Source: Candidatus Poribacteria bacterium (GTDB lineage Bacteria > Poribacteria > WGA-4E > GCA-2687025). Taken from it: a stretch of DNA of 64,000 nt. Position numbers and translations under genes: made by a program. Positions 49,388 through 57,626 of this stretch are shown piece after piece. Within the stretch, counting starts at the first letter, position 1. Each line of letters begins with the position of its first letter. The DNA lies in contig OY762492.1 of the NCBI GenBank assembly GCA_963665845.2, positions 1-64,000 of the forward strand, read 5' to 3'. The notes beneath the pieces were generated by a model, which saw only the letters and a list, made by a program, of their open reading frames with translations, did no database searches and was not told the DNA's origin.

Positions 49388-49514
49388 CTGACCTCATGTC
49401 TAAAGTCGGGACATTTCGCCTGGCGAACGCGGACGTCTTCTGCGGCGCCTCTAGATTCCCGCGCGTTTTACCGCGGGGGCGGGAATGACGGCGAGTGGGA
49501 CGCGTCATTCCCGC
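49388..49514 (+). repeat. Modular palindromic repeat, long-loop variant plus extra inverted half-site
   Basis: AACGCGGACGTCTTCTGCGGCGCCTCTAGATTCCCGC identical to 12116-12152. Confidence 0.85.
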
Positions 49515-49530: not shown

Positions 49531-50283
49531 TCACGACGCCCCAACTTTAGGGGCGGTGTCGGCGATTTCGCTGCTCACATCGATCTCGTCCAGACCAAAG
49601 AGGGACGACTCCTCCTTTGCGGCGATCCGCCCGTTTTCTAGGTAGAGCGTCTCGTCGCAGGCGTCCGCCAGCTCCAGGTCATGCGTCGCCGTGAGAACGG
49701 CGATGCCGTCCTGCGCAAGCTCCTTGAAGAGGCCGCTGACGGCGCCGCGCATGGAGGTCTCTAAGCTGCCGGTTGGTTCGTCCGCGATGAGTATCTTGGG
49801 CGCGTTGACGACCGCTCTTGCGATGGCGACGCGCTGCCGGTCGCCGCTGTTCAGCTGCGACGCCGGCAGATTCCGTTTCCCGCTCAGCCCGACCCGTTCG
49901 AGCGTCTCGTCAACGCGCTTTCGGTCGAGCTTTTGACGCGAAAACAGGGTCGGGAGAAGCGCGTTTTCTTCAGCCGTCAGCGTCGGTATGAGATGAAAAC
50001 GCTGAAAGATGAAGCCGATCGTGTTGCGCCGAATCGCCGTCAGCTCCCGTTCGGAAGCGTTGGCGACATTCCGCCCGTTGATCCAAAGCTCTCCCTCCGA
50101 CGGCGAGTCGAGGCATGCAATCAGGTTCAGGAGCGTCGATTTGCCGGACCCTGACGGACCCGCCAGCGCCGTGACAGTACCTTCCTGCAGCTGAACATCG
50201 ACCCCGTCCAGAGCGCGCACGGTTTCGGACCCGCGCTCATACCGTTTTTTCAGTTGGATTCCTTCGGCGGCAAATTTGCTCAT
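49531..50283 (-). CDS. ABC ATPase (LolD/MacB-type) with degenerate signature
   Basis: 'GPSGSGKS', signature 'LNSGD', 'ADEPTGSL', 'ATHD'. Confidence 0.93.
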   Translation of the reverse strand: MSKFAAEGIQLKKRYERGSETVRALDGVDVQLQEGTVTALAGPSGSGKSTLLNLIACLDSPSEGELWINGRNVANASERELTAIRRNTIGFIFQRFHLIPTLTAEENALLPTLFSRQKLDRKRVDETLERVGLSGKRNLPASQLNSGDRQRVAIARAVVNAPKILIADEPTGSLETSMRGAVSGLFKELAQDGIAVLTATHDLELADACDETLYLENGRIAAKEESSLFGLDEIDVSSEIADTAPKVGAS

Positions 50284-50948
50284 GCTGTCCTCCTTTCCTC
50301 ACTGATGACGCCGTCCCGCAGATGCGCAACGCGGTCGGCGAGCGCGGCGAGCTTCGCGTTGTGCGTCGCGGCGACGACCGCAAGCCCCTGCGAATCCGCC
50401 AACTTGCGGAACAGCTGAAAGACCGCCAGCGAGTTCAGCACATCCAGATTCCCGGTCGGCTCGTCCGCAAGCAGAACCTTGGGGCGGTTCACCAACGCGC
50501 GCGCAATCGCCGTACGCTGCATTTCCCCGCCGCTCATTTCAGGCGGGCGGTGATCTTTTCGATGCTCAAGCCCGACCGCTTCCAGCAGCTCATGCGCGAT
50601 CCGCCCATTCTTTTTTCGGCTAAAGAACAGCGGCATTTCCACATTTTCCAGCGCGGTCAGATTCGGCAGCAGGTGGAACTCCTGAAAGACGAACCCGACC
50701 GTCTCTTGGCGCATCTTCGCGCGCTCTTTTTCGCTTTCGCTCCATGTTTGCCCGTTCACTTCGGCGGAGCCTTCCGTCGGCGCGTCCAGCCCGCCCAGCA
50801 GGTTGAGCAGCGTCGTTTTGCCGGCGCCGGAAGGTCCCATCACGACCACAAACTCGCCCGCCGACGCCTCAAAGTCCGCCTTTTTAAGGGCGTGTATCGA
50901 CTCGTTCGGCAGACGGTACGTTTTGCTGAGCTGCGCCGCTTTCACCAT
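50280..50948 (-). CDS. ABC ATPase (LolD/MacB-type)
   Basis: 'GPSGAGKT', 'MSGGE', 'ADEPTGNLD', 'ATHN'. Confidence 0.94.
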   Translation of the reverse strand: MVKAAQLSKTYRLPNESIHALKKADFEASAGEFVVVMGPSGAGKTTLLNLLGGLDAPTEGSAEVNGQTWSESEKERAKMRQETVGFVFQEFHLLPNLTALENVEMPLFFSRKKNGRIAHELLEAVGLEHRKDHRPPEMSGGEMQRTAIARALVNRPKVLLADEPTGNLDVLNSLAVFQLFRKLADSQGLAVVAATHNAKLAALADRVAHLRDGVISEERRTA

Positions 50949-50949
50949 C

Positions 50950-52125
50950 TCATGTCCCTTTCCGAATCGCTTCAATCGGGCGCATGGAGGCGGCGCGCGC
51001 CGCAGGATAAAGCCCCGCCGCCATGCCCAGCAATACCGCCCCGCCGGCGCATGCGGCCATCAAGCCGACCGTGATCGACATGATCGGACCGTTCGGCGCG
51101 TAGGTGAGCGCGTTGCGCACAAGCGACTCCACAATTTGCGCCGCCGCCAGCGCCAGGACGCATCCGATAAAACCGCCCGCGGCGCAGATCAGCGTCGTTT
51201 CGGACCAGATCAACCTGAAGATGTCCGCCTTGGAGGCGCCCATCGCTTTCATGATTCCGATCTCCTGCGTCCGCTCAAAAACCGACATGAGAATCGTGTT
51301 GATGACGCCGACCGCGGCGACGATGAGCGCAATCGCGGCGACCGACATGACCAGTATGCGCGCGCTTGACACAAGACCCATGATCGTCTGTTTCACCCGC
51401 GCCATCGTGACCACCTGTATGTCGGGTATTTCGTACATGTCCGCTTCAAACGCGCTTGTCGCGTTCAGTTCTTTCAGCTTGACGCCGACGCCGGTCAGCT
51501 TGTTTTCAAGATGCGGAAAAATGCTCTGCAGCGTTTCCATACGGACAAAAGCCATCGCGTCGTCCTGCGATCCGCTTCGTTCAAAGACGCCGACAACTTT
51601 GAGCGTCTCTTCTGTGCCGTGAACGAGTATGAAATCGCCTGGGCTCCGCTGGTCAAGTTCGGCGGCTTCATACCCAAGAACGACCTCGCCGGCCGCGCCG
51701 GGCGTGAGCCATTCTCCCTCTTTGAATTGCATCCACGGCTTCAACTGCCGATAGGCGTCCGTCACCCCCATGTAGATGCCGGTCGCTTCGCGGTCAGGGT
51801 CGTATGAAGCATGGAGCAGCTGCGGCATAAACTTGTCGACGCGCGGATCGCTCATGATGACCTGCGCCGTCTCTTCGCTGATGTAGGTCGGGTCGACGCC
51901 GCCGGCAAGCATCATCGTCGCGGCTTCGTAGGGGCAGCCCTTCGCCGTGACGAGCATCTGGTAGCCGAGCCTGTCGACATCGTCTTCGAGCGCGTTCTGG
52001 TAGCCGTTGTTGAACCCAAGCAGGCTCACCAGAACCGCCGCGGAGGCCGCGACGCCCGCGAGCGTCAAGGCGGTGCGCGTCTTTCGGCGGAACAGGTTTT
52101 TCCAGCTCAGTTTGAAAAAGCGCAT
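50950..52125 (-). CDS. ABC permease, MacB/FtsX family
   Basis: 'WKNLFRRKTRTALT', periplasmic domain with 'KGCPYEA', 'SVFERTQEIGIMKAMGA', 'YPAARAA'. Confidence 0.93.
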   Translation of the reverse strand: MRFFKLSWKNLFRRKTRTALTLAGVAASAAVLVSLLGFNNGYQNALEDDVDRLGYQMLVTAKGCPYEAATMMLAGGVDPTYISEETAQVIMSDPRVDKFMPQLLHASYDPDREATGIYMGVTDAYRQLKPWMQFKEGEWLTPGAAGEVVLGYEAAELDQRSPGDFILVHGTEETLKVVGVFERSGSQDDAMAFVRMETLQSIFPHLENKLTGVGVKLKELNATSAFEADMYEIPDIQVVTMARVKQTIMGLVSSARILVMSVAAIALIVAAVGVINTILMSVFERTQEIGIMKAMGASKADIFRLIWSETTLICAAGGFIGCVLALAAAQIVESLVRNALTYAPNGPIMSITVGLMAACAGGAVLLGMAAGLYPAARAASMRPIEAIRKGT

Positions 52126-52143
52126 GTCGTCTCTCCTTTCGCT

Positions 52144-52545
52144 TTATTCGATCGTGTTGCCGAGGCCGAGGATATAAACGGGGGCGTCTTCGGTGAATCG
52201 AACGCGCCCCTGAACGACCGATCTCTTCCCCGCCGAATTTTTGGGGATGGCGTAGGAATCTGACCGCATTTCAAGGTCCACCTTGATCTGCTGCGTCTCG
52301 TCGGCGATGTTGAACCAGCAGCCATGCTCTGGACACACCTTCGCGATCTTGCCTTCGACGCGGACGATTTTGTCATGGTACTCTTCAGGGTTGTTGAGAA
52401 TGTCGGCGATGGCCGTGGTTTCCGTTAAGTCGACCGCTTTCCCGTAGGACTTCTCGCCGGACTTTCCGCAGCCAATCAGAAGCGCGGCGGAGGCGAGAGC
52501 GATGACGAAGAAGCTGTTGCGGAGCGTTGCGGGGCGAATGTTCAT
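52144..52545 (-). CDS. DUF4920-like OB-fold lipoprotein
   Basis: Lipobox 'LIGC'; 'VRVEGKIAKVCPEHGCWF'. Confidence 0.75.
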   Translation of the reverse strand: MNIRPATLRNSFFVIALASAALLIGCGKSGEKSYGKAVDLTETTAIADILNNPEEYHDKIVRVEGKIAKVCPEHGCWFNIADETQQIKVDLEMRSDSYAIPKNSAGKRSVVQGRVRFTEDAPVYILGLGNTIE

Positions 52546-52630
52546 TTTGAGTTTCCCTTTCTTGCTTTCAAGGAACTGTTACCGCGCTTTCGTTCAGGTT
52601 GAAAAGTCGGTTTTCAAAGCGTCCATGGTT

Positions 52631-52720
52631 TCAGTTCCTGGCAGGCGTCAAGGCGGCGCGCGTCTTTCGGCGAAGCAGGTTTTTCCAGCTCAATTTGAAA
52701 ACGCGCGCGCCTTGCTCCTT
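52631..52720 (-). pseudogene. Relic copy of the 5' end of the ABC permease gene
   Basis: Reads ARVFKLSWKNLLRRKTRAALTPARN*, vs permease MRFFKLSWKNLFRRKTRTALT; AAAGGAG RBS retained, ATG replaced by GCG. Confidence 0.8.
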
Positions 52721-52725
52721 TCTGG

Positions 52726-53172
52726 TCACCGGATCGTGTTGCCCATGCCGATGAGTTGTATGGCTCCGTTGGACACGCGAACGCTGGCTTGAACCGACGC
52801 TTCTTTCCCCTTGGAACCCTTCGGAATCACGTACGGGTCGCTGCCCGCATCCAAGACCACCTTGATGCGCTCGGTGCCGTCGGCGATATAGAACCAGCAT
52901 CCCGACATCTGGCACACCTGGCCAATCTCGCCTTCTACGCGGACCGTCTTGCCGTCGTACGCTTCCGCGTTCTTTTTAATGTCGGCAATCGTTGATGTTT
53001 CGGTGACGGTGATCTCCTTGCCGTAAAGAACCCCGTCAGCAGCTTTCTCTTTAGAAGTGGACGTTTCGGGCGCGTCAGCGCCGTTCGTTTCCTTGTCTTT
53101 GGATTTTCCGCAGCCGGCAATCAGCGCAACGGAAATGACGAAAGCGGCGGCGAGAAAAAGGTTGCGTCGCAT
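52726..53172 (-). CDS. DUF4920-like OB-fold lipoprotein (paralog)
   Basis: Lipobox 'IAGC'; 'VRVEGEIGQVCQMSGCWF'; clearly similar to 52144-52545. Confidence 0.75.
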   Translation of the reverse strand: MRRNLFLAAAFVISVALIAGCGKSKDKETNGADAPETSTSKEKAADGVLYGKEITVTETSTIADIKKNAEAYDGKTVRVEGEIGQVCQMSGCWFYIADGTERIKVVLDAGSDPYVIPKGSKGKEASVQASVRVSNGAIQLIGMGNTIR

Positions 53173-53249
53173 GTTTCGGTTCCCTTTCTTTTGAAGGAAT
53201 GGTCGCTCGTTCTTTGGTTTCTGGTTGAAAGAGTTTGGAGCCGCTCCTT

Positions 53250-53882
53250 TCATTTCTCTTTCTTGATTTCATGGAATTGCTTGTCGTATTTGCGGTCCAG
53301 GTTGAAAAAGTCGGCGTAGATCAGGTTTTTGCGAACCGCGCGAACGGTCGCTTTGAAGTCGACAGCGCTTTTTTCGTTCGGCGAACGCAGAGCCGCCGCC
53401 TTTTTGGCGTTCAGGTAGAAGTCGCCGAGCGTCAGGTCTTTGAACTGAAGCAGCGTCTCTTCCGTCTTCAACGCTTTCGCGTGCGGCGACACGACCCGCT
53501 GGTACGACACCTTCAGGATCTTCCCCTCCAGATCCAGCGCTGTGAACACCTGCATCGCGCCGAATTGCCCTTTCTGGTTCACCCCAGAGACATAGCCGAT
53601 CGGCTTTTCCCCTTTGAGAACCACATAGGTGGTGTGTTCCAGGTCTGCAGGCTCATATTTTTTGTCCAGTTTGTCGCCGAGACGCGCCTCAAATTCTTTG
53701 ATCAGCGTCTCTCCGCCCGCCTCTTTGAGCGAGCTGACGACCGTTTTGTAACCGGTCGATTCAGGAAAAAACTTGCGGATGTCCCTGTCCGGCTTTTGAA
53801 GTTTGCATGCCGTGATCGCGTCGGCGCCGTTCGGCAGCGCGGCGGCGATCATGAAGGCGGCAAACAGAGCGATTCGTTTCAT
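53250..53882 (-). CDS. Secreted protein with FMN_bind (RnfG/NosR-like) fold resemblance
   Basis: Signal peptide; 'IGYVSGVNQKGQFGAMQVFTALDLEGKILKV'; no canonical [S/T]GAT flavinylation motif. Confidence 0.6.
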   Translation of the reverse strand: MKRIALFAAFMIAAALPNGADAITACKLQKPDRDIRKFFPESTGYKTVVSSLKEAGGETLIKEFEARLGDKLDKKYEPADLEHTTYVVLKGEKPIGYVSGVNQKGQFGAMQVFTALDLEGKILKVSYQRVVSPHAKALKTEETLLQFKDLTLGDFYLNAKKAAALRSPNEKSAVDFKATVRAVRKNLIYADFFNLDRKYDKQFHEIKKEK

Positions 53883-53894
53883 GGGGCATTCCTT

Positions 53895-54860
53895 TCAAAA
53901 TGCAGTGTGAAGAAGCATGAGAAGAGCGGGGCGGCGCAGGTCCGTCAACTCTTGGGTGAACGCCGCCTCCCACGCAAACGAGAGCGGACCGCCGCTGAAT
54001 TCTCGGCGCAGCGAGGCGATTGCCCACGCCGCGTCCTGATGAGCGCGCGCGCTGACGGTCAACCGCCACGGGTCCATCGGACGAACGGCGGTCGCTTCGC
54101 CCGCATAAAGCCGCTTGCCGTTTCTCTGCCCGACCGACAGCTCCAAGCGCGGTTCAATCGTTCCGTTGAAGGCGAAGAGGACGGTTTGCAGGTCGAACGC
54201 GGCGCGCTGCTCCCCGTCTTGAATCGACGCGCCGTTCTGATGTTTCCACAGCGCCGAGACGCCGTATTGCATGACGCCGTCCGAATAAGGCTGAACGCGC
54301 GCGGACGCCGTCCATTCGCCTGCTTTCTTGTCGAACGGGTTGCGTTGGTTTCCTCCAAGAACAGCCGCTTCGTAGTCGAAGCTGTCCAGCTGCCCGTTCA
54401 GCGAGGCTCCCCATCGGCGCGCCGGTATTCCGTTCGACATGGACAAGCTGGGTATCAGCTCTCGGTGAAAATCGATAACGGGGTTCAGTCCGAACGGCGT
54501 TTTGAACCGTCCGAGGCGCAGGTTGGCGCGCCCGTTCAGCCCTCTTAAGTTGATGTAGGCGTCATGGATTTCGGCGCCCCAGTCGCCGCTTCTCTGCATG
54601 AAGCGGTTGTCCATGGCGAGGTTTTGCGTATGCGCATACCGCAGCTGCAGGGCGGCGGTCGCCCAGTCGCCGCTCTCGGTCGCCAGTATCTGTACGACTT
54701 CGATGCCGGCGGCGGCGCGGAGGGAGCTGACCAGCTCGTTGTCGGCGCGCGCGCCGCCGGCAGCGAGATAAAGCTCGCCGCTTGCCGTTCCCTCGGCATG
54801 AGCGAACGCGGCGGCCGCCATGCAGGCGGCGTATGTGAGTGTCCAAAGCGGTTTCCGCAT
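53895..54860 (-). CDS. Putative outer-membrane beta-barrel/porin
   Basis: Signal peptide; 'IHDAYINL..NLRLGRFKTPFG' porin-like motif; alternating strands; C-terminal Phe. Confidence 0.7.
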   Translation of the reverse strand: MRKPLWTLTYAACMAAAAFAHAEGTASGELYLAAGGARADNELVSSLRAAAGIEVVQILATESGDWATAALQLRYAHTQNLAMDNRFMQRSGDWGAEIHDAYINLRGLNGRANLRLGRFKTPFGLNPVIDFHRELIPSLSMSNGIPARRWGASLNGQLDSFDYEAAVLGGNQRNPFDKKAGEWTASARVQPYSDGVMQYGVSALWKHQNGASIQDGEQRAAFDLQTVLFAFNGTIEPRLELSVGQRNGKRLYAGEATAVRPMDPWRLTVSARAHQDAAWAIASLRREFSGGPLSFAWEAAFTQELTDLRRPALLMLLHTAF

Positions 54861-54926
54861 GATAGGAAACGCCTTCTGTTGCGCAATGAAAGATGAAGGT
54901 TGTTGAAGCGCGCCGGTCTTGTTGAA

Positions 54927-55337
54927 TTAGACGGGGGGCGCTCTAGAGGGGTGGGCGGCGCGTCGAGGCGGAGGAGGAGGAAGCGCGCGGGATTCAAGAC
55001 AGGAGGAAGAGGCAGAAACGGGCGCGTTCAAGGCGGCGGCGCATTCGGTCATGCCAAGATCGAAGGAAGCGCCTATGTTCACCGTTTGCGCGGGGACAAC
55101 AGGCGCATGCTCGGCGCTCTCTTCAACGGAGCAATCGCTAGAGCAGAGCGGCTCTGCCGTCCCGCAACAGCAGGCGGCGGACCCCGTCGGCGAAACGTCG
55201 GCATAGGACGCCAGAAGGACCGCCGTCGGGAGAGTCGCCATCGCCGCTAAAATCAGAAAAATAGCGGCGGCATGTTGAACGCGCTGATGGTTCTTTGTGC
55301 GCATCGTTCCGCTCATGTGTATCGTCATGCCGTTCAC
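54927..55337 (-). CDS. Cys-rich leader protein ending in RAPP (DUF2946/CruR-like); start uncertain (55337-55304)
   Basis: Hydrophobic N-terminal helix, 'ACCCG..LCSSDC', Pro-rich tail 'PPPPPRRAAHPSRAPPV*'; stop 66 nt before the porin ATG. Confidence 0.65.
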   Translation of the reverse strand: MNGMTIHMSGTMRTKNHQRVQHAAAIFLILAAMATLPTAVLLASYADVSPTGSAACCCGTAEPLCSSDCSVEESAEHAPVVPAQTVNIGASFDLGMTECAAALNAPVSASSSCLESRALPPPPPRRAAHPSRAPPV

Positions 55338-55478
55338 TTTATTTATAACATGCGACGGGCGGGCGAGTCAAGCGTTTCACGATTTTTATGCTCGCCGCTC
55401 CCCTCATGCGCTTCGTCATGCCGTTCACTTTATTTATAACATGCGGCGGGCGGGCGAGTCAAGCGTTTCACGATTTTT
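55322..55478. repeat. 66-bp direct repeat x2 (55322-55387, 55413-55478), each carrying a minus-strand promoter
   Basis: One mismatch between copies; each has TTGACT-18 nt-TATAAA with TG extended -10. Confidence 0.9.
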
Positions 55479-55480
55479 GA

Positions 55481-56770
55481 CTAATTTAGACTAGAAAATG
55501 GATTGAATAAACGGACGCAAGACAACTGCCACCGCTTCGCCTCCTCTGCAAACTGGCTGATGTCCATAAAGCGGGCGGGGCGGTCCGAAAGCGTTTCTTC
55601 GTTGCGCACATTCTGCCGCATCCGCGCGATATACTGCGGATGAAGCTCGGTCATGAAGAAATAACGCCCCAGCAGCAGAGCCGCCTTGCCGAGCGTTCCG
55701 CTTCCGCCGAACGGATCAAACACCAGATCGCCCCGAAACGAGTACAGCTTCACCGCCTGCATACACAGCTTCAACGGAAACACGGCGCTATGGACGCGGT
55801 CGGACGCCGGCGCAATCTCCCACACGTTCGAACGTTCAAAATCGTCGTCCACCTTGCTGCGCTGCGCGGCGTCTTCAGAATACTGCCGCAGGTTCCAGTC
55901 GATCAGCCTGCGCGACTTTTTCCGATACACCATCACATATTCGGTTCGCGCGTTCGCTTTGTAGGTCAACGGCGTTCGATTCGTCTCAAAACCCGCGACC
56001 CGATTTTTGACGCTTTTGTCCGGCTTCGCCCAGACGATGTCGTCAATAAACTCCCAGCCCATCGGCGTCAACCGCGCATGCAGGTCGAACGGAACCGCAT
56101 ACCGCCGGCTAGAATACTTGCGCCCCGCCCGCGGAACGATCACCGGCGATGTGTTTAAAACAAAAAACCGCCCCTCCTTCGTCACGCGGTGGACTGCCCG
56201 AAACGCTTCCTCTAAAAAGTCGAGATATTCGCCGTAGCTGCCGTAGATCGCATAGTCGCGCGCGTTGTAGTACGGCGGCGATGTGAAGGTCAGGTGAACG
56301 GACGCCGAAGGGACATGCCCCAGCGTCTGCAGCGCGTCCCCTTGAATCGCCGCGTTTTTCATGAAGTCGGGAGACGCCGCATGCGGCTCCTCCTCAACCG
56401 GCGCATTCCCCTCCAGCTCCTGCGCCACGATGTCCTGAATCATATCGTTCGGATGATTCCGCAGCCCGTTCAAAAACTGAACGACGGACGGATCCGACCG
56501 AAACACAAGCAGCCCGCGAATCGCCTGAAGCGCGATCTCCGGGTTCGGATGCTCCGCGTATTGCGTCAAGATCGGCTTGAGAGACGGATCGCGCTTTCTG
56601 CCGATAGAGGCGGCCGCCTCCCGCTTCTCGGCGGTGGACGCCTCGCTTTCAAGGACGGCGAGGCAATCCTCCAGCGGCATCTCCGCGGATCCCAAGAGGC
56701 GCCGCGTTTCCGTCGGCGCCTCCTCGCTCTCAAAGAGCGGGTTGTCGTAACGCTCTTCCTGGTTGGGCAT
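55481..56770 (-). CDS. N4-C/N6-A DNA methyltransferase (beta class) with N-terminal HEAT-like repeats
   Basis: 'TSPPY' (motif IV) precedes 'DPFGGSGT' (motif I); N-terminal 'KREAAASIG..HPNPEIALQAIRGL'. Confidence 0.9.
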   Translation of the reverse strand: MPNQEERYDNPLFESEEAPTETRRLLGSAEMPLEDCLAVLESEASTAEKREAAASIGRKRDPSLKPILTQYAEHPNPEIALQAIRGLLVFRSDPSVVQFLNGLRNHPNDMIQDIVAQELEGNAPVEEEPHAASPDFMKNAAIQGDALQTLGHVPSASVHLTFTSPPYYNARDYAIYGSYGEYLDFLEEAFRAVHRVTKEGRFFVLNTSPVIVPRAGRKYSSRRYAVPFDLHARLTPMGWEFIDDIVWAKPDKSVKNRVAGFETNRTPLTYKANARTEYVMVYRKKSRRLIDWNLRQYSEDAAQRSKVDDDFERSNVWEIAPASDRVHSAVFPLKLCMQAVKLYSFRGDLVFDPFGGSGTLGKAALLLGRYFFMTELHPQYIARMRQNVRNEETLSDRPARFMDISQFAEEAKRWQLSCVRLFNPFSSLN

Positions 56771-56774
56771 GGTT

Positions 56775-57626
56775 TCAGTCCAGCCCCGCTTGATCCCACA
56801 CCTCTTTGAGCGCGTTTCCGACAACGCGCGCCGCTTCGTCCTTGTCTTCGATGCTGTTCAGCTTTTTGCTGAACGGCTCTGGGGTGACGGGACCGTCAAA
56901 ACCGATCTCGTTCAGCGCCTGCAGAAAGCCGACCAGATCGATGACGCCTGTTTCGCCCGGCAGGCAGCGGACGCTGTCGATCTGCTCTAAGACATCCACG
57001 CCCGCCGGCGCGTCGTTCACATGGACATAGACCACCTCCTCCGCGACCAGCTGGCGCAGGTCGGTGAGGGTGCTTTGGCAGGTGTACCAGTGCCAGCAGT
57101 CAAGCAGCAGCCCGACATTGCCTGTGCCGATGGCGCATCCGATCGCGAGCATCGCGTCCATCGTATAGACGCAGCCGTATCGGGCGCCGCGGCGCGAGGT
57201 GTGCGGACCGATGAACTCAAGACCGAGAACGCACCCGTAGTCGAGCAGAACCTTCGCCGTCAGGCCGAATCGGCGGACGAAGAAGTCGAACTGCTCCTGC
57301 CGCGTTTTGTCGTTTGACCATCCCGCGACCCATGTCATCGTGCGGTATGATCCGAGCTCCGCCGCCAGCTGCGCGTGTTCCGGCAGCTTGGACAGGCTTT
57401 CGTAAAATTGCGCGTCGGTTCCGTTCCAGTGAACGGGCAGCGGCCATGCGCCGATGCGGATTCCCGCCTCGTCATACATCTCCTTGACCGCCGACGCCCC
57501 CAGTTGATGCGCTTGACCCAGATTCAGGTCAAGCCCCTGAAAACCGCCGATCTTTGCGTAATGCAGCCCCTTTTCAATCGTGTCGGCATGAATGCCGACG
57601 GCGCCGGGCGATAAGTTTCGGTACAT
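56775..57626 (-). CDS. Sugar phosphate isomerase/epimerase (TIM barrel)
   Basis: 'GLEFIG', 'GLLLDCWH', 'VHVND', 'LPGETG', 'TPEPF'. Confidence 0.88.
   Translation of the reverse strand: MYRNLSPGAVGIHADTIEKGLHYAKIGGFQGLDLNLGQAHQLGASAVKEMYDEAGIRIGAWPLPVHWNGTDAQFYESLSKLPEHAQLAAELGSYRTMTWVAGWSNDKTRQEQFDFFVRRFGLTAKVLLDYGCVLGLEFIGPHTSRRGARYGCVYTMDAMLAIGCAIGTGNVGLLLDCWHWYTCQSTLTDLRQLVAEEVVYVHVNDAPAGVDVLEQIDSVRCLPGETGVIDLVGFLQALNEIGFDGPVTPEPFSKKLNSIEDKDEAARVVGNALKEVWDQAGLD

What the first reader, a model, noticed from the sequence alone, without database searches (positions are those of the whole stretch)
49531..55478. RAPP-ended Cys-rich leader ORF heading a porin / CxxxGCW lipoprotein / MacB-ABC operon: candidate ribosome-stalling metal-responsive system
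Seen: a short exported-looking ORF with CCC and CxxxC and a Pro-rich tail ending HPSRAPPV*, 66 nt before a co-oriented run of porin, FMN_bind-like protein, two lipoproteins (CPEHGCW, CQMSGCW), a permease (periplasmic GCPYE) and two ATPases. Known: C-terminal RAPP/RAGP motifs arrest ribosomes (ApdA, ApdP, ApcA), and the DUF2946 leader CruR (CxxC + RAPP) controls a downstream TonB-dependent transporter in response to copper in Bordetella. Inference: the same logic is wired here to a different cargo, a TonB-independent porin plus type VII ABC module with several Cys-bearing periplasmic proteins. I know no description of this combination; the metal and direction of transport are unknown.
Basis: partly seen in the sequence, partly recalled or inferred. 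Interest (0 to 1): 0.85.

Follow-up and report, generated by a model that had tools for sequence, protein, structure and literature searches.

The report
Stalling leader on copper-linked envelope transporter
A short cysteine-rich gene ending in a known ribosome-stalling motif sits in front of a widespread but unstudied porin and ABC-transporter operon that many other bacteria place behind a likely copper-sensing repressor, so it likely acts as a copper switch for a predicted copper-handling system of the cell envelope.

Summary
The leader is a real gene. RAPP and a five-Cys cluster are invariant in 6 of 6 full-length close relatives while the spacer drifts, and its 3' end avoids G like a Rho site. 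It is not DUF2946 by HMM or spacing; it is CutF/CruR-like.

The cargo (porin, non-flavinylated RnfG-like protein, DUF4920 lipoprotein or YtkA, GCPYE MacB-type permease, ATPase) is a conserved operon in many phyla. Most copies lack a leader. Of 104 assessable loci, 27 start with a Cu(I)-type CsoR repressor, 38 with YtkA and 5 with an unrelated Cys-rich RAPP/RSPP/SPP leader. Two more leaders turned up in Nitrospinota, and one plasmid copy uses ArsR/SmtB. Leader and CsoR never head the same copy, and this genome lacks CsoR.

Best reading: copper likely prolongs the stall, blocks Rho and switches on a predicted periplasmic Cu(I)-handling type VII ABC system. The CruR-like uptake direction remains a live rival. 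Leader-before-porin is already in published tables; the cargo operon and the swap of regulators were not found in print. No stalling, metal or transport was shown.

The parts
55294..55475 (-). 91-nt tandem duplication that doubles the promoter; single in G001
55433..55462 (-). upstream copy of a predicted sigma70-type promoter (TTGACT-18 nt-TGnTATAAA)
   Evidence: consensus match only (missed by the stricter scan)
55342..55371 (-). proximal predicted promoter; homology with G001 begins just upstream of it
54927..55337 (-). leader ORF; likely start ATG 55304 (125 aa); predicted Sec signal or membrane anchor, five conserved Cys, variable spacer, RAPP
   Evidence: no Pfam/NCBIfam family
55131..55172 (-). 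CCC-x6-CxxxC cluster, 63-76 residues before the Arg of RAPP
   Evidence: invariant in 7 of 7 aligned leaders; offsets
54933..54944 (-). RAPP arrest motif, one residue before the stop
   Evidence: 6 of 6 full-length homologs
54930..55037 (-). C-rich, G-poor, weakly structured stretch; predicted Rho loading (rut) site
   Evidence: C-G excess above the genome's 99.9th percentile; G at synonymous third positions 4 of 30 against 14.2 expected, P 1e-4; G001 5 of 28, P 1e-3
54861..54926 (-). 66-nt intergenic region with a block conserved in G001 that is predicted to pair with the RAPP codons
54851..54870 (-). core of a predicted hairpin enclosing the porin start codon, kept in G001, not unusually strong
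   Evidence: 155 of 500 genes are as hard or harder to open
53895..54860 (-). porin, predicted general-porin-like barrel, C-terminal Phe
53250..53882 (-). exported RnfG/NqrC-fold protein without flavinylation motif; invariant Cys near the mature N-terminus
52726..53172 (-). extra DUF4920 OB-fold lipoprotein (duplicate copy)
52645..52706 (-). remnant of the permease 5' end (92% identical to 52062-52123), scar of the duplication
52144..52545 (-). DUF4920 OB-fold lipoprotein, ortholog of the single copy in G001
50950..52125 (-). MacB-family (type VII ABC) permease with invariant periplasmic GCPYE
50280..50948 (-). LolD/MacB-type ATPase 1 (signature MSGG)
49531..50283 (-). LolD/MacB-type ATPase 2 (altered signature LNSG)

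Best explanation
This is a Cys-rich, RAPP-ended leader gene in front of a conserved porin / RnfG-like protein / lipoprotein / MacB-type ABC operon; the leader likely stalls ribosomes, likely senses periplasmic copper, and would switch the operon on when copper is high, standing in for the CsoR repressor that heads the same operon in other phyla.

Steps. (1, inferred) The nascent leader is exported by Sec. With the ribosome at RAPP, the Cys cluster 63-76 residues back would be clear of tunnel and membrane, in the periplasm. (2, inferred from CutF) Without copper the Cys residues oxidise and fold, export pulls the chain off the stall, the ribosome leaves, and Rho loads on the C-rich 3' end of the leader and ends transcription before the porin. 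(3, inferred) Cu(I) on the Cys cluster prevents that pull, the ribosome stays over the Rho site and the operon is read through. (4, inferred) The cargo is a type VII ABC machine that works in the periplasm without MacA or TolC. Cu(I) would be collected by the lipoprotein (YtkA in the other clade), passed between the single invariant Cys of the RnfG-like protein and of the permease, and cleared through the porin or handed on.

Shown: the anatomy, the conservation, the G-avoidance and the swap of regulators. Not shown: stalling, metal binding, direction, transport.
For: Leader: RAPP in 6 of 6 full-length homologs and five Cys in 7 of 7. Between G000 and G001 the Cys segment has pN 0.10 and the spacer pN 0.41. 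Only Cys-rich ORF of this build in the genome. Meets the CutF-like rules of PMC9973294 except the untested signal-peptide prediction. RAPP arrest is robust and EF-P resistant (PMC12992588).

Rho route: C>G bubble and G3 avoidance in both genomes although the stretch has diverged. Rho is present. CruR works this way.

Copper and direction: the operon is conserved in about 100 porin-bearing loci. 27 of 104 assessable loci start with CsoR. 30 of 30 CsoRs have Tyr-Cys..His..Cys, reported to predict Cu(I) selectivity (PMC4235346). 21 of 28 have a TACCCC-N3-GGGGTA-type operator against 27 of 2720 background windows, matching the published CsoR site. 27 of 33 further Cloacimonadota loci are CsoR-headed, none leader-headed. 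A plasmid copy in Massilia putida is headed by ArsR/SmtB, also a metal-released type (recalled). Neighbours are YtkA, YHS, NosL, cupredoxin, HMBD.

Swap: leaders in 5 of 39 loci not headed by CsoR or YtkA, in 0 of 65 that are (Fisher p 0.006, loci not independent). Two more in Nitrospinota. Three mutually unalignable leader sets at three places on the permease tree, at least two forced. No CsoR found in G000, G001 or G062 and no operator upstream of the leader. YtkA and the lipoprotein exclude each other: 44, 40 and 3 with neither, of 87.
Against: 99 of 104 assessable homologous operons have no leader. The window's own leader family is confined to close kin: 5 proteins, 2 representatives, 2 of 176 phylum genomes. 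[quoted passage not shown] The only tested RAPP metal leader, CruR, is switched off by copper, and a Rho site fits that direction equally well. The host has a heme-copper oxidase and CopA, so uptake is plausible. The window's copies have lost family-conserved His residues: porin His in 96 of 100 is Arg here, RnfG-like His in 118 of 122 is Ser here, so the substrate may have shifted. G-avoidance is not significant in three of the other leaders tested (L073 P 0.06, L096 P 0.08, L059 P 0.42; L100 P 0.004). The 38 YtkA-headed copies mostly lack a CsoR operator (3 of 38), and some follow a Fur-family gene. The fingerprint Cys/His pattern alone does not predict the metal. Type VII ABC transporters are not known to move ions across the inner membrane (recalled), so step 4 has no direct precedent.
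Confidence: 0.42

Rival explanations
1. CruR logic: the ribosome stalls by default, the operon is on when copper is scarce, and copper relieves the stall so that Rho terminates. The cargo in this host would be a copper uptake or delivery system for respiratory cuproenzymes.
For: Same RAPP motif and C>G bubble as CruR. RAPP gives strong default arrest. Host has a heme-copper oxidase. YtkA domains serve CuA assembly in B. subtilis (PMC13344008). RAPP leaders are most often upstream of uptake genes. Lost His residues suggest repurposing.
Against: The same cargo is placed behind CsoR in 27 of 104 and 27 of 33 loci and behind ArsR/SmtB once; these repressors let go when metal is high. CxxxC plus extra Cys and the long spacing resemble CutF more than CruR. 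No heme-copper oxidase was found in G062 (88% complete), which has a leader-headed copy.
Confidence: 0.25
2. The leader stalls, but the signal is another soft metal (Ag, Hg, Cd, Zn) or the periplasmic thiol-redox or secretion state, and the cargo is a thiol-relay machine rather than a copper system.
For: Each cargo protein has a single invariant Cys. The Massilia copy has a DsbD N-terminal domain and an ArsR/SmtB regulator. Several copies lie beside cysteine synthase and Rrf2 genes. Thioredoxin and DsbA genes are known cargo of RAPP leaders.
Against: 30 of 30 neighbouring repressors have the Tyr-Cys-His-Cys signature rather than the His-less persulfide type (CstR pattern recalled). Neighbours are mostly Cu-binding families.
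Confidence: 0.2
3. The leader is simply a small periplasmic metal-binding protein of the operon and RAPP does not regulate anything.
For: Many RAPP proteins do not stall. No switchable structure links the stall site to the porin start: opening cost 13.9 against 12.9 kcal/mol. Most copies of the operon manage without it.
Against: RAPP is invariant at the very end of a fast-drifting tail. Unrelated leaders on the same operon converge on RSPP or SPP/TPP tails. Synonymous G-avoidance points to an RNA-level role. Always first in the operon.
Confidence: 0.1

Closest known systems
CutF of Rhodobacter capsulatus and the CutF-like proteins (PMC9973294; bioRxiv 10.1101/2025.02.05.636593)
   Same: Small first gene with a predicted signal peptide, CxxxC plus further Cys, PP within the last 15 residues, co-oriented neighbour under 100 nt away; copper-induced stalling turns on a detoxifying gene.
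   Different: CutF stalls on a PPP motif that EF-P relieves and opens a stem-loop over the cutO ribosome site; spacing 45 aa. Here RAPP, spacing 63-76 aa, a Rho-like signature, no reachable stem-loop, no DUF2946 hit, and a porin/ABC cargo.
CruR (Bp2923, DUF2946) of Bordetella pertussis (PMC9426467; arrest shown in PMC12992588)
   Same: C-terminal RAPP, Cys motif, C>G bubble in the 3' part of the leader, first gene before an outer-membrane protein.
   Different: CxxC at 45 aa, signal peptide dispensable, 162-nt intergenic region, TonB-dependent cargo, repressed by copper. The window's leader has no DUF2946 match and its cargo is elsewhere under metal-released repressors.
RAPP/RGPP small-ORF catalogue (PMC12992588, Fig. 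4 source data)
   Same: Lists RAPP leaders before carbohydrate porins (54 against 5 AAPP) and OprO/OprP porins, TolC, RND, CopC and others.
   Different: No DUF4920, FtsX, MacB, FMN-binding or Poribacteria entry in the part held (file cut; file 10 not searched); only the first downstream gene is listed.
CsoR regulons (PMC3902906, PMC4235346)
   Same: Homologous operons have the repressor signature and the operator.
   Different: The CsoR targets named in the passages read are CopZ/CopA-type efflux genes; a porin plus type VII ABC target was not found in print.
Type VII ABC systems (MacAB-TolC, LolCDE, FtsEX, YbbAP-TesA) and P19/Ftr1 iron clusters
   Same: MacB_PCD+FtsX permease with LolD-like ATPase and a periplasmic partner; P19 clusters also pair metal handling with an FMN-binding or thioredoxin-like protein (PMC8238504, passage).
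   Different: No MacA, TolC, Ftr1 or P19 here; a general porin, a non-flavinylated RnfG-like protein and an invariant GCPYE instead.

Membership tests
DUF2946 / CruR | Pfam PF11162 match | tested here: not met
   no hit at E<=1 for the leader, its homologs or the genome
DUF2946 / CruR | CxxC motif | tested here: not met
   conserved motif is CCC-x6-CxxxC
DUF2946 / CruR | 45 +/- 2 residues between Cys motif and RAPP | tested here: not met
   63-76 residues (rule)
DUF2946 / CruR | C-terminal RAPP | tested here: met
DUF2946 / CruR | C>G bubble (rut) in the 3' part of the leader; Rho in the host | tested here: met
   (sequence signature only)
DUF2946 / CruR | copper-triggered Rho termination | not testable with these tools
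   needs reporter and bicyclomycin tests
CutF-like proteins (rules of PMC9973294) | under 150 aa, PP in last 15 residues, same-strand neighbour within 1000 nt, CxxxC | tested here: met
CutF-like proteins (rules of PMC9973294) | Sec signal peptide by SignalP | tested here: inconclusive
   basic N-region and hydrophobic stretch seen; no signal-peptide predictor available
CutF-like proteins (rules of PMC9973294) | sequence link to one of the 29 CutF-like clusters | tested here: inconclusive
   profile searches found close kin only; Atlas look-alikes are unnamed small proteins at 0.95 and DUF6769 at 0.94; the paper's list was not visible
CutF-like proteins (rules of PMC9973294) | stem-loop over the downstream ribosome site that the stalled ribosome opens | tested here: not met
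   hairpin present but about 50 nt past the stop and unchanged by the modelled footprint
RAPP arrest peptides (ApdA/ApdP/RQH) | RAPP near the C-terminus of a small exported protein | tested here: met
RAPP arrest peptides (ApdA/ApdP/RQH) | ribosome arrest in vitro or in vivo | not testable with these tools
   toeprinting needed
RAPP arrest peptides (ApdA/ApdP/RQH) | upstream of sec or yidC genes | tested here: not met
   downstream gene is a porin
Type VII (MacB-family) ABC transporter | MacB_PCD and FtsX domains with a LolD/MacB-type ATPase | tested here: met
MacAB-TolC tripartite pump | adjacent MacA adaptor and TolC | tested here: not met
   none in the window operon or among the recurrent neighbour clusters
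Flavinylated FMN_bind proteins (RnfG/NqrC/NosR) | fold | tested here: met
   AlphaFold pLDDT 96.8; RnfG TM 0.58, E 1e-4
Flavinylated FMN_bind proteins (RnfG/NqrC/NosR) | [ST]GA[ST] flavinylation motif | tested here: not met
   2 of 133 homologs, not the window's (motif)
Cu(I)-sensing CsoR (heads of homologous operons) | Tyr(A)-Cys-His-Cys signature and TAC-X9-GTA operator | tested here: met
   30 of 30; 21 of 28 and 26 of 27

The most novel reading that the evidence does not exclude
An undescribed copper system, widespread in anaerobic and candidate phyla, clears periplasmic Cu(I) with a type VII ABC motor, a Cys relay and a plain porin, without TolC, MacA or a multicopper oxidase. It has been wired repeatedly to three unrelated sensors: CsoR, ArsR/SmtB and independently recruited ribosome-arrest leaders. 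The leader here is a hybrid switch, with CutF's copper-on direction, CruR's RAPP motif and Rho output.
Probability: 0.25. Interest if true: 0.82.

Novelty: new variant of a known kind. Interest (0 to 1): 0.62.

Why it matters
Only two metal-sensing arrest leaders have been tested, and they act in opposite directions, so the direction of the thousands of predicted ones cannot be read from sequence. Here the same cargo is controlled elsewhere by a repressor of known logic, which gives a prediction (copper on) that one reporter experiment can test. The cargo itself is a family of more than 2,500 proteins with no paper found, and would be a type VII ABC transporter working on a metal without TolC. 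A cultured host carries a copy on a plasmid (Massilia putida 6NM-7), so it can be studied.

Tried and rejected
DUF2946 membership: no hit.

Wider leader family: profile searches gave close kin only. The 15 weak matches in 14 other genomes at E 0.007-0.09 look like noise; 6 of them were read and none was a leader.

A strict scan for RAPP-like motifs within 1500 nt upstream of the porin found one convincing case in 101 loci. It missed the RSPP/SPP leaders because of gene order and motif, and was replaced by the rule-based scan.

CutF-type stem-loop switch: a hairpin over the porin start is kept in two genomes but is ordinary in strength (155 and 75 of 500 genes as strong or stronger) and out of reach of the stalled ribosome. 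No intrinsic terminator lies between leader and porin on the coding strand.

Flavin electron transfer: motif absent. Solved relatives of the RnfG-like protein by sequence: none.

G004's upstream region: the contig is cut inside the porin. Its DUF2946 leader heads a different operon.

RNA: one metatranscriptome run of a related strain has a contig over the leader and none over porin to lipoprotein. These are contigs only, at low share, and are no evidence of level or termination.

The complex prediction of permease with the RnfG-like protein was not available, so binding is untested. Whether the two duplications stand in other samples of the same organism is open. The careful permease tree did not finish; the quick tree was used and has no reliable root.

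Literature searches for the cargo found nothing relevant (DUF4920 in 0 papers). Scan notes by place and by cargo words were empty.
Full report
1. The observation. The minus-strand run 49531-55337 is as described. The leader ends HPSRAPPV, 66 nt before the porin. Pfam gives Porin_O_P, DUF4920 twice, MacB_PCD+FtsX and two ABC ATPases, and nothing for the leader or the 210-aa exported protein (NCBIfam). AlphaFold with Foldseek makes the latter an RnfG/NqrC fold (pLDDT 96.8; TM 0.58) and the porin a general-porin-like barrel. A sigma70-like promoter conserved in G001 ends at 55342, so the start is likely ATG 55304, as in database gene calls. A 91-nt tandem duplication gives the window two promoter copies. 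One lipoprotein is an extra copy with a scar of the permease start; G001 has one, and a contig of run X7 skips the same 710 nt. The host belongs to Candidatus Poribacteria, judged from its same-family relative. The operon was found in 4 of 176 genomes of the phylum.

2. The leader is a real, selected gene. Seven homologs align: five Cys are invariant in 7 of 7 and SRAPP in 6 of 6 full-length ones, the seventh being truncated. All are close kin (62-66% identity in the alignment), so they are not independent. Between G000 and G001 the Cys segment has pN 0.10, the spacer pN 0.41 and pS 0.77. It is the only Cys-rich, hydrophobic, RAPP-ended ORF in the genome. It is not DUF2946 by HMM, motif or spacing (63-76 aa against 45), but it meets the sequence rules for CutF-like proteins. 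No distant homolog was found; Atlas look-alikes are unnamed small proteins.

3. How a stall could reach the operon. The last third of the leader is C-rich and G-poor in both genomes: C minus G of 27 and 28 per 78 nt against a genome 99.9th percentile of 23. This exceeds what the Pro-rich protein needs. G at fourfold third positions is 4 of 30 (14.2 expected, P 1e-4) and 5 of 28 (12.9 expected, P 1e-3), while the first two thirds are normal. Rho is present. This is the CruR arrangement. The alternative, a CutF-type stem-loop, is weak: a hairpin encloses the porin start in both genomes, but 155 and 75 of 500 control genes are as hard to open, and a modelled stalled ribosome does not change it. 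In the other leaders the signature is mixed (L100 P 0.004; L073 0.06; L096 0.08; L059 0.42).

4. The cargo is an old, widespread operon. The permease has 3,335 relatives at E<=1e-60 and the RnfG-like protein 2,599 at E<=1e-20, both among capped candidate sets. In 160 fetched loci porin, RnfG-like protein, permease and ATPase keep their order across Planctomycetota, Omnitrophota, Elusimicrobiota, Thermodesulfobacteriota, Cloacimonadota and others. The permease keeps GCPYE in 80 of 80 aligned sequences (the scan patterns included this motif, so this count is partly built in). The RnfG-like protein keeps one Cys in 111 of 111 and lacks the flavinylation motif. The lipoprotein keeps its first Cys in 71 of 75 and its second in 57 of 75. 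YtkA and the lipoprotein exclude each other (44, 40, 3 neither, of 87) and mark the two main clades. No MacA or TolC is among the recurrent neighbours; YHS, NosL, cupredoxin, HMBD and ArsP-type permeases are.

5. Who heads the operon. Of 159 permease loci, 55 had under 650 nt upstream and were set aside. Of the other 104, 27 start with CsoR, 38 with YtkA, 5 with a Cys-rich leader and 34 with none of these. All 30 CsoRs have Tyr-Cys..His..Cys and an acidic residue in the last helix. PMC4235346 reports that this Tyr appears to predict Cu(I) selectivity, while warning that the Cys/His pattern alone does not. A CsoR operator matching the published consensus lies upstream in 21 of 28, against 3 of 38 YtkA-headed loci and 27 of 2720 random windows; none lies before the leader. 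Targeted follow-up: of 33 Cloacimonadota loci 27 are CsoR-headed (26 with an operator match) and none has a leader; of 4 further Nitrospinota loci two are leader-headed, one is truncated and one is a lone distant homolog (some may repeat earlier loci). The leaders form three sets with no significant similarity between sets: RAPP (window, G001), RSPP (L073, L096, L100) and SPP/TPP with a longer tail (L059, L202, L203). In all, the Cys cluster lies 55-96 residues before the motif. They sit at three places on a quick permease tree, at least two forced; gains and losses cannot be ordered without a root. No CsoR was found in G000 (90% complete), G001 or G062. The one plasmid copy among 72,556 records, in Massilia putida 6NM-7 from mine tailings, is headed by ArsR/SmtB and ends with a DsbD N-terminal domain.

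6. Mechanism. In both tested systems a stall means 'on'; copper shortens it in CruR and prolongs it in CutF. I commit to copper-on (0.42 for the whole chain). The cargo is elsewhere behind repressors that let go when metal is high. The CxxxC with extra Cys fits CutF's disulfide model. The spacing would put the Cys in the periplasm, given about 30 residues in the tunnel and 17 across the membrane. Output would be Rho read-through. G000 has CopA and a heme-copper oxidase, but no multicopper oxidase and no CusA-type pump over the cut-off, which leaves room for a periplasmic Cu(I) system but also for uptake (rival, 0.25). The loss of two family-conserved His in this genus and the DsbD and cysteine-synthase neighbours keep another metal or thiol state open (0.2). 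A non-regulatory RAPP is least likely (0.1), though most RAPP proteins tested did not stall.

7. Novelty. RAPP leaders on metal operons are a known class, and leader-before-porin is in the source data of PMC12992588. Not found in print (open-access library only): the cargo operon, its CsoR control and the exchange of CsoR, ArsR and leaders. Verdict: new variant of a known kind, interest 0.62.

8. What was read. PMC9426467: abstract, sections 7, 9, 10, 11. PMC9973294: abstract, sections 10-12, 13 (part 1 of 2), 25; its supplements gave only 8 kB of text, so the neighbour table (File S1) was not seen and could list this cargo. bioRxiv 2025.02.05.636593: passages. PMC12992588: abstract, section 13, passages, part 133 and search rows of supplementary file 8 (cut; file 10 not searched). 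PMC10987492, PMC4235346, PMC3902906, PMC13344008, PMC8238504: passages. Other papers: search listings only. Recalled, from no call: metal-released behaviour of ArsR/SmtB, the CstR pattern, that type VII ABC transporters act in the periplasm, and the anaerobic habit of most host phyla.

Noticed in passing
window 55294-55475: A 91-nt tandem duplication doubles the predicted promoter in this genome only; it could raise or retune leader transcription.
   Followed up: partly
window 52547-53258: About 710 nt extra: a second lipoprotein flanked by remnants of the RnfG-like 3' end and the permease 5' end. The extra copy is more diverged from G001's gene (dS 1.0) than the resident one (0.45), suggesting capture from another strain.
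   Followed up: partly
window 49531-50283: The second ATPase has an altered ABC signature (LNSG), also in L011, L031 and L101, while single-ATPase operons keep LSGG: possibly a heterodimer with one weak site.
   Followed up: partly
L200:165-2694 (G004:C177): A DUF2946-matching RAPP leader heads a His-rich porin-like gene and a ZnuA-like binding protein with permease: a second leader-plus-porin operon in the same family.
   Followed up: no
L065:11901-12386 and L072:4309-4800: A very Cys-rich exported ORF ending in a Pro-rich tail lies just after the ATPase and heads a further operon in Geobacter-like genomes; likely another arrest leader, no Pfam hit.
   Followed up: no
L199:10636-15236 (NZ_CP019036.1): The whole cargo operon with ArsR/SmtB and a DsbD N-terminal domain sits between a transposase and a recombinase on a Massilia putida plasmid.
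   Followed up: partly
L039, L046, L060, L077, L078: Records titled as Bacillota carry the porin-containing operon and group with diderm phyla on the tree; mis-binning or transfer.
   Followed up: no
L053, L055, L066, L076, L087, L091: In Elusimicrobiota a Cys-rich Fur-family gene precedes the operon, with a divergent exported heavy-metal-binding-domain protein: possibly a fourth regulator.
   Followed up: no
L108, L110, L113, L037, L048, L107: Rrf2 and/or cysteine synthase genes adjoin the operon in several lineages.
   Followed up: no
window 55481-56824: A DNA methyltransferase (N6_N4_Mtase) fused to HEAT repeats lies upstream; in G001 a further gene separates it from the leader.
   Followed up: no
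window 49400-49500: A short repeated element after the operon draws very deep read cover from many loci; probably a dispersed repeat.
   Followed up: no
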